A DNA stretch of 64,000 nt, taken from the IMG/VR virus record IMGVR_UViG_3300044638_007100. One strand, written 5' to 3'. Positions 61,768 to 61,846 of the stretch are shown in pieces. The stretch is from a virus. The notes beneath the pieces are model-generated. The model saw nothing but the letters and a program-made list of their open reading frames with translations. It was not told the DNA's origin and made no database searches. Positions within the stretch are counted from its first letter, which is position 1. Every line of letters starts with the position of its first letter. The position numbers and the translations under genes are program-made.

Positions 61768-61846
61768 GAGATTATTTGAGATAAGGGATCGAACCTTAAC
61801 CATCTATGCAGATAGTTTCAACCAGAAGGGTTTGCTGAATAATCTC
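61768..61846 (-). ncRNA. CAGCAA stem module E3 with a tRNA-like apical domain
   Basis: 9-bp stem GAGATTATT/AATAATCTC plus CAGCAA enclosing an ACTATCT/AGATGGT hairpin and a T-arm TAAGG-TTCGATC-CCTTA. Confidence 0.7.

What the first reader, a model, noticed from the sequence alone, without database searches (positions are those of the whole stretch)
61768..61846. E3 resembles a YrlA-like tRNA mimic on a CAGCAA stem
Seen: the 9-bp stem encloses a TGG-containing D-loop-like segment, a 7-bp hairpin and a canonical T-arm (TAAGG-TTCGATC-CCTTA), but there is no acceptor end or 7-nt anticodon loop. Established: YrlA Y RNAs consist of a Ro-binding stem plus a tRNA-like domain with D- and T-arms. Inference: convergent or divergent Y RNA.
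Basis: partly seen in the sequence, partly recalled or inferred. Interest (0 to 1): 0.7.

Follow-up and report, generated by a model that had tools for sequence, protein, structure and literature searches.

The report
Phage tRNA-shaped RNA beside Ro60-like gene
This 79-base stretch of a cyanophage folds like a stripped-down tRNA closed by a stem that carries the conserved letters CAGCAA, and it is most likely one of several small partner RNAs of the neighbouring Ro60-shaped protein, a protein-RNA pairing found in hundreds of phages whose RNA half I found described in no paper or catalogue.

Summary
On the minus strand, 61846-61768 folds into a 9-bp closing stem, unpaired CAGCAA, a small GG hairpin, a 7-bp hairpin and a canonical T-arm.

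The gene 35 nt upstream (DUF2828+DUF7788) has the whole Ro60 fold (Z 21.3 to Xenopus Ro60). Across 100 loci holding this gene, helix+CAGCAA modules lie 426:52 on the gene strand.

E3 belongs to a subclass whose loop carries a T-arm. Its T-stem covaries. A model built without E3's lineage still finds E3 (32 bits, E about 7e-5).

Larger relatives in distant phages carry T-arm, closed acceptor hairpin and D-arm. They hit Rfam YrlA at E 1e-8, below its cut-off. E3 gets no YrlA hit, lacks the GNCGAA motif and keeps tRNA order, not YrlA's permuted order.

So "Y-RNA-like tRNA mimic" is supported as a way of working, not as YrlA membership.

E3 itself is young and unstable. It occurs only in phages whose protein is at least 93% identical, in long and short forms. 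Binding to the protein and a stable RNA are not shown.

The scan has met this protein-RNA pairing before, on other DNA (259 notes, at least 193 genomes). A 2024 preprint already guessed at Y RNAs beside a Ro60-like phage protein.

The parts
61838..61846 (-). P1 5' arm GAGAUUAUU of the closing stem (takes the place of the acceptor stem)
   Evidence: Pairs with 61768-61776 in the MFE and centroid folds. Both arms are unchanged in all E3 orthologues.
61832..61837 (-). Unpaired CAGCAA, the conserved handle motif directly 3' of the 5' arm
   Evidence: Invariant in alignments A2 and A4. Helix+CAGCAA modules number 426 on the gene strand against 52 on the other strand in 100 DUF2828 loci.
61820..61831 (-). 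GG segment (CCCUUCUGGUU): D-loop-like, or the 3' half of a 4-bp hairpin AACC/GGUU that begins in the last A of CAGCAA
   Evidence: MFE fold. A WGGWW motif is enriched upstream of T-arms in family loops: 17 of 33 against 4.8 in shuffles.
61799..61816 (-). P2, a 7-bp hairpin with a GCAU loop, in the position of an anticodon arm; specific to this lineage
   Evidence: Folds. Absent from the short forms in L002 and L154. Its sequence aligns with the module part of a T-type RNA in L155.
61782..61798 (-). T-arm UAAGG-UUCGAUC-CCUUA
   Evidence: The loop fits UUCRANY in all variants (UUCGAUC, UUCGAUU, UUCAAUU). The T-stem covaries across the subclass.
61777..61781 (-). Linker UCUCA between the T-arm and the 3' arm (1-2 A in the short forms)
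   Evidence: Alignment A4.
61768..61776 (-). P1 3' arm AAUAAUCUC; 8 nt later the next tRNA-shaped RNA begins (61759)
61854..61874 (-). Perfect hairpin GGAGAGGG-UAUAA-CCCUCUCC between the stop codon and E3
   Evidence: Present in all relatives that carry E3, with the loop in either orientation.
61881..63344 (-). Gene for the Ro60-fold protein (DUF2828+DUF7788, 487 aa), the presumed binding partner
   Evidence: Pfam. AF2 model with pLDDT 89.7. Foldseek and VIA-align top hits are all Ro60, Z 21.3 over 406 residues. The MIDAS motif D294-S296-S298 is invariant.
61917..61945 (-). Candidate promoter TTGACA-17-TATAAT inside the end of the ORF, about 70 nt upstream of E3
   Evidence: 12 of 12 consensus matches. 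Partly dictated by conserved codons.
61335..61759 (-). Rest of the RNA array downstream of E3: T2 (61647-61759), E2 (about 61579-61644), T1 (61458-61575), E1 (about 61411-61457), tRNA-Gly (61335-61406)
63354..63569 (-). Upstream part of the same unit: tRNA-Val (63498-63569) and two plain CAGCAA-stem modules, E5 and E4, in the gene's 5' leader

Best explanation
E3 is a small non-coding RNA, or an RNA domain cut out of the array transcript. It belongs to the 'helix + CAGCAA' family that travels with the Ro60-fold protein DUF2828, and it works like a Y RNA.

Proposed parts:
- The closing stem with the single-stranded CAGCAA beside it is the handle that the ring-shaped protein binds.
- The loop is a reduced tRNA cloverleaf in tRNA order: a small GG hairpin, a middle hairpin and a true T-arm. 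This part presents a tRNA 'elbow' to a host or phage factor that recognises tRNA shape, such as PNPase as in the known Ro60-Y RNA-PNPase particles, or RNase P, RNase Z or modification enzymes.

Proposed route: the RNA is transcribed with the array (from the leader promoter, or from the candidate promoter at 61945-61917). Its 3' side is freed when RNase P cuts 8 nt downstream, at the 5' end of the next tRNA-shaped RNA.

Shown here: the fold elements, the Ro60 fold of the neighbouring protein, the strand-specific linkage between family and gene, conservation and covariation of the T-arm, and the YrlA-like nature of the full-size relatives.

Inferred, not shown: binding to the protein, existence of a stable RNA of about 80-90 nt, the role of the elbow, and the biological purpose. 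The likely purpose is RNA surveillance, tRNA repair or counter-defence.
For: - Protein: Ro60 is the top structural match over the whole chain.
- Linkage: modules number 426 against 52 by strand in 100 loci. All 102 R1 hits are on the gene strand. All R2 hits with E < 0.1 in the 64-kb window lie within 1.7 kb of the gene.
- The same modules lie beside the gene in cultured phages of unrelated families: wV8, A511, LeBron and ValKK3.
- T-arm: 37 T-arms in 214 distinct loops against 0.17 expected. The inner four T-stem pairs are always paired, with 9 and 12 double changes.
- E3 is found by a model trained without its lineage.
- Six long members fold on their own into the same four-way junction.
- Full-size relatives hit Rfam YrlA at 50.3, 49.2 and 43.8 bits.
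- Literature: Y RNAs with T-arms bind Ro60 (PMC4201824). Phage phiLo Ro60 binds two phage Y-like RNAs and host PNPase (PMC12135203). Bas63 gp130, which is Ro60-like and sits upstream of the tRNA genes, counters the Ppl defence (PMC11482910).
Against: - No expression or binding data exist.
- E3's own folding energy is unremarkable (z = -1.8).
- E3 is restricted to phages whose protein is at least 93% identical. In relatives at 94% identity or less, the position just after the gene is empty or holds a plain module.
- Long and short forms coexist among phages whose proteins are 99% identical, so the middle hairpin is dispensable.
- The long form's interior looks like a piece copied from a T-type RNA. 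That fits neutral shuffling as well as function.
- The GG motif also occurs in loops without a T-arm, so it may not be a D-loop mimic.
- My first choice of sequences required a paired T-stem, so part of the pairing is there by construction.
Confidence: 0.6

Rival explanations
1. E3 acts only in cis. It would be a landing pad in the 3' UTR of the DUF2828 mRNA and the 5' leader of the tRNA-shaped RNA array. The protein, or RNase P or Z drawn by the T-arm/stem minihelix, would use it to cut and trim the precursor or to feed back on the gene's own message. No free RNA would have a role of its own.
For: - CAGCAA modules fill nearly every spacer of the array and the gene's 5' leader, one ending next to the ribosome-binding site.
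- In the short forms the T-stem abuts the closing stem with 1-2 nt between, giving a 13-14 bp stack like the acceptor/T minihelix that tRNA-processing enzymes recognise (the enzyme preference is textbook knowledge).
- E3 lies 8 nt from an RNase P site.
Against: - The same subclass lies upstream of the gene, downstream of it, or up to 1.7 kb away among tRNAs in other phages, so no fixed cis position is kept.
- Full-size relatives look like free-standing YrlA RNAs.
- Cis and trans roles do not exclude each other.
Confidence: 0.22
2. E3 is evolutionary debris: a plain CAGCAA-stem module that picked up a fragment of a neighbouring tRNA-shaped gene by recombination between repeats. The T-arm would be a leftover without a role.
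For: - The interior of the long form aligns with the 3' part of a T-type RNA in L155 (score 32 against 16.6 +/- 3.1; 0 of 1000 shuffles).
- Long and short forms vary among near-identical phages.
- The element is absent from slightly more distant relatives.
Against: - All three T-loop variants still fit UUCRANY, and the G-C pairs next to the loop never change.
- Both long and short forms keep the T-arm while the rest is reshaped.
- The same layout recurs in phages whose proteins are only 40-45% identical.
Confidence: 0.12
3. The repeats act at the DNA level, as miniature mobile elements or recombination hot spots, and the RNA folds are incidental.
For: - They are short repeated palindromic units in spacers.
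- The modules are evidently shuffled.
- The hairpin at 61854-61874 occurs in both orientations among relatives.
Against: - The strand bias relative to transcription is strong: 426 against 52, and 102 against 0 for the model hits.
- The helices covary while CAGCAA stays fixed.
- I saw no target-site duplications and no transposase.
- The linkage is to one protein family across unrelated phages.
Confidence: 0.03

Closest known systems
YrlA Y RNAs of bacteria and mycobacteriophages (Rfam RF02553; Chen et al. 2014, PMC4201824)
   Same: Encoded beside, and on the same strand as, a Ro60-type ring protein. A terminal stem with a short conserved motif on the 5' side, plus a tRNA-like module with a canonical T-arm. 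Full-size members of E3's family match the YrlA model's T-acceptor-D domain at E 1e-8.
   Different: E3 gets no YrlA hit. Its motif is CAGCAA, not GNCGAAN0-1G. It has no closed acceptor hairpin and no D-arm. Its order is tRNA-like, not permuted. The protein is DUF2828/DUF7788 and is related to Ro60 only at the fold level: there is no Pfam TROVE hit and no sequence-profile hit to Ro60 chains.
Deinococcus radiodurans Yrn1 Y RNA (as drawn in Chen et al. 2014, PMC4201824)
   Same: The layout described there is a protein-binding stem formed by the two ends, partial D-loop features, a middle 'anticodon arm' whose loop is not 7 nt, then a T-arm. E3 has the same order and the same kind of reduction.
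   Different: I compared layout only, from the paper's text. I held no Yrn1 sequence or model, so homology is untested. The handle motif differs.
Thermus phage phiLo Ro60 with Yrl1 and Yrl2 (PMC12135203); Bas63 gp130 (PMC11482910)
   Same: Phage-encoded Ro60-type proteins with candidate partner RNAs next to the gene. The phiLo protein binds its RNAs and host PNPase. Bas63 gp130 lies just upstream of the tRNA genes, counters the Ppl defence, and the authors guess that some of the 'tRNAs' are Y RNAs.
   Different: The phiLo RNAs were picked by a CGAA motif, not CAGCAA. The Bas63 paper names no RNA. That gp130 is the DUF2828 orthologue is my inference, from wV8 gp047 of the same genus.
Class I RNAs of dictyostelid social amoebae (Kjellin et al. 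2021, PMC7919456)
   Same: A short stem joins the two ends. A conserved unpaired motif ending in ACAGCAA lies directly 3' of the 5' arm. The loop is variable, with an A-rich run before the 3' arm (sequences in the paper's supplement; text).
   Different: Class I RNAs are 42-65 nt, with a 6-bp stem and the full 11-nt CCUUACAGCAA, and no T-arm is reported for them. E3 is 79 nt, has a 9-bp stem and lacks CCUUA. No Rfam family of that kind hit the window. Whether amoebae use a DUF2828 protein was not tested here.
tRNA
   Same: A canonical T-arm (G53-C61, U54 U55 C56 R57 A58), a four-way junction in cloverleaf order, and a location in a tRNA gene array.
   Different: A 9-bp closing stem with no discriminator or CCA end, no D stem of tRNA type, a 4-nt loop on the middle hairpin, and six extra conserved bases (CAGCAA) after the 5' arm. 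Neither ARAGORN nor RF00005 calls it.

Membership tests
YrlA (Rfam RF02553) | Score at or above the family's gathering threshold (69 bits) | tested here: not met
   No YrlA match overlaps 61768-61846 even at E <= 10. The only weak YrlA match in the region (17.1 bits) lies at 61598-61699.
YrlA (Rfam RF02553) | GNCGAAN0-1G motif near the 5' end (Chen et al. 2014) | tested here: not met
   The 79-nt sequence holds no GNCGAA. CAGCAA occupies that place.
YrlA (Rfam RF02553) | tRNA-like domain in the order T-arm, closed acceptor-like hairpin, D-arm | tested here: not met
   E3 has a GG hairpin, then a middle hairpin, then the T-arm, with only 5 nt after the T-arm. Relatives such as L220 4725-4849 and L210 2080-2190 do have the YrlA order.
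YrlA (Rfam RF02553) | Encoded within about 4 kb of a Ro60 orthologue and on its strand | tested here: met
   E3 starts 35 nt after the stop codon of a Ro60-fold protein, on the same strand. Caveat: the protein is DUF2828, not Pfam TROVE.
Helix+CAGCAA RNAs linked to DUF2828 (not in Rfam) | Terminal helix with CAGCAA 0-3 nt 3' of its 5' arm, on the strand of a nearby DUF2828 gene | tested here: met
   9-bp helix, spacer of 0 nt, 35 nt from the gene. Family-wide strand bias of 426 to 52.
Helix+CAGCAA RNAs linked to DUF2828 (not in Rfam) | Recognised by a covariance model built from other lineages only | tested here: met
   R2, built from 13 sequences none of which is of E3's lineage, scores E3 at 32.2 bits, E about 7e-5 in 64 kb. 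The E-value is rough, and the training alignment was made with R1, which had seen E3.
T-arm-bearing subclass of that family | 5-bp stem plus UUCRANY loop inside the module loop, with a covarying stem | tested here: met
   UAAGG-UUCGAUC-CCUUA. The subclass T-stem is 90% paired with 4 of 5 pairs changing on both sides. Enrichment is 37 against 0.17 expected.
tRNA (RF00005) | Acceptor stem with a free 3' end, D-arm, and anticodon arm with a 7-nt loop | tested here: not met
   ARAGORN and Infernal do not call it. The middle hairpin has a 4-nt loop.
Dictyostelid Class I RNA | 6-bp terminal stem, 11-nt CCUUACAGCAA, total length 42-65 nt | tested here: inconclusive
   The stem and CAGCAA are present. 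CCUUA is absent and the length is 79 nt. No model of that family was available for scoring.
Ro60 / Rsr (for the neighbouring protein) | HEAT-repeat ring plus vWA domain with a MIDAS motif | tested here: met
   Z 21.3, rmsd 4.1 A over 406 of 487 residues to 1yvp_A; the next fold class (vWA alone) reaches Z about 9. DxSxS is invariant in 57 sequences.
Ro60 / Rsr (for the neighbouring protein) | Pfam TROVE domain or sequence-level similarity to Ro60 | tested here: not met
   Pfam gives only DUF2828 and DUF7788. phmmer and a 57-sequence profile find no Ro60 chain in the PDB at E <= 10.

The most novel reading that the evidence does not exclude
E3 is the minimal form of an undescribed, very widespread class of Y-like RNAs defined by a helix plus (A)CAGCAA. 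These would be the long-missing RNA partners of the DUF2828 branch of Ro60-like proteins, which occurs in about 700 cultured phages including Felix O1-like phages, A511 and LeBron. On one handle the class displays interchangeable tRNA parts: whole tRNA bodies, permuted YrlA-like domains, or just a T-arm elbow. The same handle marks the unexplained Class I RNAs of social amoebae.
Probability: 0.45. Interest if true: 0.8.

Novelty: new variant of a known kind. Interest (0 to 1): 0.62.

Why it matters
Ro60 particles are known from animals, some bacteria and a few phages. Their partner RNAs have been hard to find by homology.

Here a large protein family of unknown function gains a likely RNA ligand. 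The family has about 7000 clusters at 50% identity and occurs in 705 cultured phage records. The ligand has a simple, searchable signature.

E3 shows how far the tRNA-like cargo can be cut down, to a T-arm plus a GG segment. That points to the tRNA elbow as the part that matters.

One such protein already has a counter-defence phenotype in a Felix O1-like phage (PMC11482910). The RNAs may therefore be part of how phages protect or police tRNA and RNA during infection, and this can be tested in E. coli K-12 phages.

Tried and rejected
- **Intron reading.** I first read the roughly 40-nt inserts in the two neighbouring tRNA hits as short introns, and E3 as a leftover. Some relatives (L155) have no possible anticodon loop at all, so splicing is not general. 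I left this open; see Noticed in passing.
- **Ribozymes and other known RNAs.** Nothing beyond tRNA and a weak YrlA hit at E <= 10 in 61250-61950.
- **14-base exact search of viral contigs**. It gave 117 loci, nearly all chance matches; only L002 and L003 were real. A gapped 21-base pattern found 2 viral and 2 true metagenome copies.
- **Alternative acceptor-like pairing** UUU-A-GAGAU with AUCUCAAA directly after the T-arm. It is not kept in the short forms, so I dropped it.
- **CAGCAA as a decayed D-stem strand (UAGC...).** Rejected, because full-size relatives carry CAGCAA and a separate true D-arm.
- **Sequence-level link of the protein to Ro60.** None found. Only the fold shows it.
- **ESM Atlas**. 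It returned only DUF2828 clusters, mostly viral, with no information on eukaryotes.
- **Whole genome.** None is held for this window.
Gene neighbourhoods of distant homologues were therefore sampled only from 2.5-kb flanks.
- **MAFFT alignment of the subclass.** It misplaces the 3' arm of the closing stem, so P1 pairing (60%) is an underestimate. My structure-based finder sees 7-10 bp in every member.

Full report
**Setting.** The window is a piece of a T4-like cyanophage. It holds a group I intron, PhotoRC-II, wcaG and glutamine-riboswitch RNAs, and its nearest named relative at this locus is Synechococcus phage B3. The finding lies on the minus strand in an RNA-rich unit. Its order is: promoter-like site, tRNA-Val, two hairpin modules, a 487-aa gene (61881-63344), a perfect hairpin, E3, two tRNA hits of 113 and 118 nt, two more hairpin modules between them, and tRNA-Gly.

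**The observation.** Read 5' to 3' from 61846 to 61768, E3 has these parts:
- closing-stem arm GAGAUUAUU;
- CAGCAA;
- ACCCUUCUGGUUGAA;
- hairpin ACUAUCU-GCAU-AGAUGGU;
- T-arm UAAGG-UUCGAUC-CCUUA;
- linker UCUCA;
- closing-stem arm AAUAAUCUC.

The minimum-energy fold contains the 9-bp closing stem, a 4-bp hairpin that places the GG in its 3' strand, the 7-bp hairpin and the T-arm. Together they form a four-way junction in cloverleaf order. The energy is only 1.8 sd better than shuffles, so thermodynamics alone would not carry the claim.

**The neighbouring protein.** Pfam sees only DUF2828 and DUF7788. Sequence searches against solved structures do not reach Ro60. An AlphaFold model from 57 diverse homologues (pLDDT 89.7) matches Ro60 over the whole chain. 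Foldseek's first ten hits are all Ro60, including the Thermus phage phiLo protein. VIA-align gives Z 21.3, rmsd 4.1 A over 406 residues to Xenopus Ro60, against Z about 9 for proteins that share only the vWA domain. The MIDAS residues DxSxS are invariant. So this is a Ro60-shaped ring protein from a branch that sequence methods do not join to TROVE. Databases already label some phage members 'Ro-like RNA-binding protein', for example LeBron gp53.

**The handle.** CAGCAAUU occurs 14 times in the window against 3.8 expected, four of them in this unit. In 100 loci carrying a relative of the gene (587 kb in all; protein identity 39-99%), a helix directly 5' of CAGCAA occurs 426 times on the gene strand and 52 times on the other strand. 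ACAGCAA occurs 315 against 41 times.

Two arrangements exist:
- In the spacers, the arm 5' of CAGCAA pairs with a segment downstream and so encloses a loop. I call this E-type.
- Inside the long tRNA hits, the same arm pairs with a segment just upstream, forming a closed hairpin set into the anticodon stem. I call this T-type.

Long tRNA hits with such an insert recur next to the gene in phages whose protein is only 40-45% identical. Their hairpins differ in sequence but ACAGCAA is unchanged. The modules also lie next to the gene in cultured phages of unrelated families:
- Escherichia phage wV8 (Felix O1-like): four in the tRNA array after gp047.
- Listeria phage A511: three just before gp57.
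- Mycobacterium phage LeBron: three just after gp53.
- Vibrio phage ValKK3: one at the start codon.

**E3's orthologues.** The long form is identical in L003, L150, L152 and L153. In L141 it differs by two bases, giving the T-loop UUCGAUU.

Phages with 96-99% identical proteins carry short forms of 55 nt. These have the same arms, CAGCAA and T-arm, but only ACCCUUAGGAUCUC or ACUCUUAGGUUCUC in between. Their T-loops are UUCGAUU or UUCAAUU (L002, L154, L158-L161). L004 and L012 (93%) carry the short form about 245 nt downstream of the gene, after a tRNA-shaped RNA. Relatives at 94% identity or less have, directly after the gene, either a promoter-bearing hairpin followed by a tRNA-shaped RNA, or a plain module.

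So the arms, CAGCAA, a GG and the T-arm persist. All three T-loop variants still fit UUCRANY. The 7-bp hairpin is specific to this lineage.

The long form's interior aligns with the module-plus-T-arm part of a T-type RNA in L155 (score 32 against 16.6 +/- 3.1 for shuffles; 0 of 1000 reach it). The family therefore shuffles parts among its members.

**A subclass with T-arms.** I scanned all E-type loops for UUCRANY flanked by at least four pairs. Among 214 distinct loops there are 49 such loop motifs (8.8 expected) and 37 are flanked by a stem. Shuffles give 0.17, and on the opposite strand only 2.7% of such motifs are flanked.

These loops fall into two layouts:
1. *Full-size.* T-arm, then a closed acceptor-like hairpin, then a true D-arm (GCUC-AAUGGCA-GAGC and the like), then the 3' arm. 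This is the YrlA topology. Examples: L205 4198-4302 and 4625-4749, L210 2080-2190, L220 4725-4849, L225 3932-4045. LeBron from about 3020 and wV8 from about 5380 have it too. Rfam's YrlA model scores these at 50.3, 49.2, 43.8, 36.9 and 32.3 bits (E down to 1.7e-8). That is below the 69-bit cut-off, and the match covers only the T-acceptor-D domain, not the outer stems.
2. *Reduced, in tRNA order.* CAGCAA, a GG segment, usually a middle hairpin, the T-arm, 1-7 nt, then the 3' arm. E3 is one of 15 distinct members found, from phages with 40-99% identical proteins. Several lie immediately before the gene's start codon (L176, L181, L197, L209, L233, L234).

Folded one by one, E3, L008, L188, L209, L233 and L234 all give the same four-way junction. 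In L233 and L234 the GG sits in the loop of a 5-bp D-like hairpin, and the middle hairpin has a 7-nt loop with U at the second position.

**Formal tests.**
- A covariance model of 14 reduced members (R1) finds 102 matches at E <= 0.1 in 73 sources, every one on the gene strand.
- In the alignment of the 20 best matches, the inner four T-stem pairs are paired in all 20 distinct sequences. Two positions show 9 and 12 changes on both sides, with 3 to 6 pair types. The whole-structure covariation score is 0.46 against 0.18 for shuffles and at most 0.23 for slid partners.
- Two cautions apply. I had picked the sequences partly by requiring a paired T-stem, and the alignment is fitted to the model.
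- As a less circular test I rebuilt the model from 13 sequences that exclude E3, its short forms and L004 (R2). It still finds E3 at 32.2 bits (E about 7e-5), second only to the CAGCAA-to-T-arm half of the neighbouring T-type RNA. All hits with E < 0.1 in the 64-kb window fall in 61454-63480 on the minus strand.
- In the complete genome of phage B3 the best R1 hits lie just upstream of its DUF2828 gene.

**The GG segment.** A WGGWW motif is over-represented upstream of T-arms (17 of 33 against 4.8 in shuffles). To a lesser degree it is also over-represented in loops without a T-arm (52 of 182 against 20). In several members the GG pairs with a CC just after CAGCAA. So it may be a D-loop stand-in that docks on the T-loop, or it may belong to the handle. 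I cannot tell which.

**How it probably works.** Known Y RNAs bind Ro60 through the stem formed by their ends and a short motif on the 5' strand. They use a second module, tRNA-like in bacteria, to tether another protein such as PNPase (PMC4201824; PMC12135203).

E3 has the same two-part logic: a conserved handle next to a Ro60-fold gene, and a tRNA elbow. I therefore read it as a Y-like partner RNA (confidence 0.6).

Its 3' end would be set by RNase P cutting 8 nt downstream. Its 5' side lies about 70 nt from a perfect TTGACA-17-TATAAT inside the end of the ORF. That match is partly forced by the conserved codons for VDTMNETVYN, and it weakens to TATACT or TATGAT in relatives.

Context hints at RNA repair or counter-defence:
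- An RNA ligase gene follows the protein gene directly in L210, and a metallophosphoesterase gene follows it in L183.
- LeBron also encodes an RNA ligase and a polynucleotide kinase.
- In Bas63 the Ro60-like gp130, which sits upstream of the tRNA genes, is needed against the Ppl defence system.

The main rival is a purely cis role in processing or autoregulation (0.22). Next come neutral debris (0.12) and DNA-level repeats (0.03).

**Comparison with known families.** E3 works like a Y RNA but fails YrlA's defining features, as set out in the membership table. By layout it is nearer to Deinococcus Yrn1 as drawn by Chen et al. The handle is the same as in dictyostelid Class I RNAs, which have a 6-bp stem followed by CCUUACAGCAA; I read the sequences in that paper's supplement. 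This lead came from earlier notes of this scan.

In the library I could search, no paper mentions ACAGCAA together with phage. None links DUF2828 to an RNA.

**Novelty and score.** Ro60/Y-RNA particles, tRNA-like Y RNAs and phage Ro60 proteins are all known. A preprint has already guessed that 'tRNAs' next to a Ro60-like phage protein might be Y RNAs. New here are the identity of the RNAs (the handle), their three topologies, and the minimal form that E3 represents. I class this as a new variant of a known kind, with interest 0.62.

The scan has met the same protein-RNA pairing many times on other DNA: 259 notes in at least 193 genomes.

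Noticed in passing
window 61647-61759 (-), with L159, L163, L164, L166 and phage B3 (L001 1500-1609): The tRNA-shaped RNA after E3 keeps a complete 5-bp anticodon stem (ACG+GC / GC+CGU), interrupted on its 5' strand by the 40-nt hairpin+CAGCAA insert. Its 7-nt loop is A-U-NNN-R-A. The three middle bases differ among relatives (UGG here, UAG, UCG, UGU, GUU) while U33 and R37 stay fixed. That pattern is what real anticodons, or decoys of them, would show. Other relatives (L155) have no anticodon loop at all.
   Followed up: partly
window 61917-61945 (-): A perfect sigma-70 consensus, TTGACA-17-TATAAT, lies inside the last 65 nt of the DUF2828 ORF. Relatives that instead carry a TTGACA promoter in the hairpin after the gene have weaker -10 boxes here.
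   Followed up: partly
window 61854-61874 (-); L002, L154, L158: The perfect hairpin between the gene and E3 occurs with its 5-nt loop in both orientations (UAUAA and UUAUA) among near-identical phages, as if the palindrome had been inverted.
   Followed up: no
L204 1079-1524: A GOLLD RNA (198.8 bits) lies about 1 kb upstream of the DUF2828 gene in a 179-kb viral contig, on the same strand.
   Followed up: no
L210 3880-5142; L183 4317-5567: An RNA ligase gene (PF09414) starts at the stop codon of the DUF2828 gene in L210. A calcineurin-like phosphoesterase gene follows the DUF2828 gene in L183. This is an RNA-repair context in some loci only.
   Followed up: partly
window 59750-61276 (-): The phage gene just downstream of the RNA array encodes a 508-aa protein with an SLH domain and an OprB carbohydrate-selective porin domain. 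It looks like a cyanobacterial outer-membrane porin carried by a phage.
   Followed up: no
L248 6376-6446 and 5063-5150 (Escherichia phage wV8): Two features annotated 'tRNA-OTHER' (pseudo-tRNA) lie in the array after the DUF2828 gene of this Felix O1-like phage. The one at 6376-6446 holds CAGCAA between a 7-bp acceptor-like stem and a T-arm, so it is probably a member of this RNA family and not a broken tRNA. I did not inspect the one at 5063-5150.
   Followed up: partly
supplement of PMC7919456 (file 56): That paper's own outgroup scan lists an Arabidopsis candidate (stem GUUUUC/GAAAAC with AUUACAGCAA, score 40) and a Capsaspora candidate carrying the same handle. The papers that mention DUF2828 report it in plants.
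   Followed up: no
window 36313-36565, 37307-37402, 57337-57439, 18452-18500 (all -): A group I intron, PhotoRC-II, wcaG RNA and a glutamine riboswitch reach the Rfam gathering scores. This is the usual cyanomyovirus RNA set.
   Followed up: no
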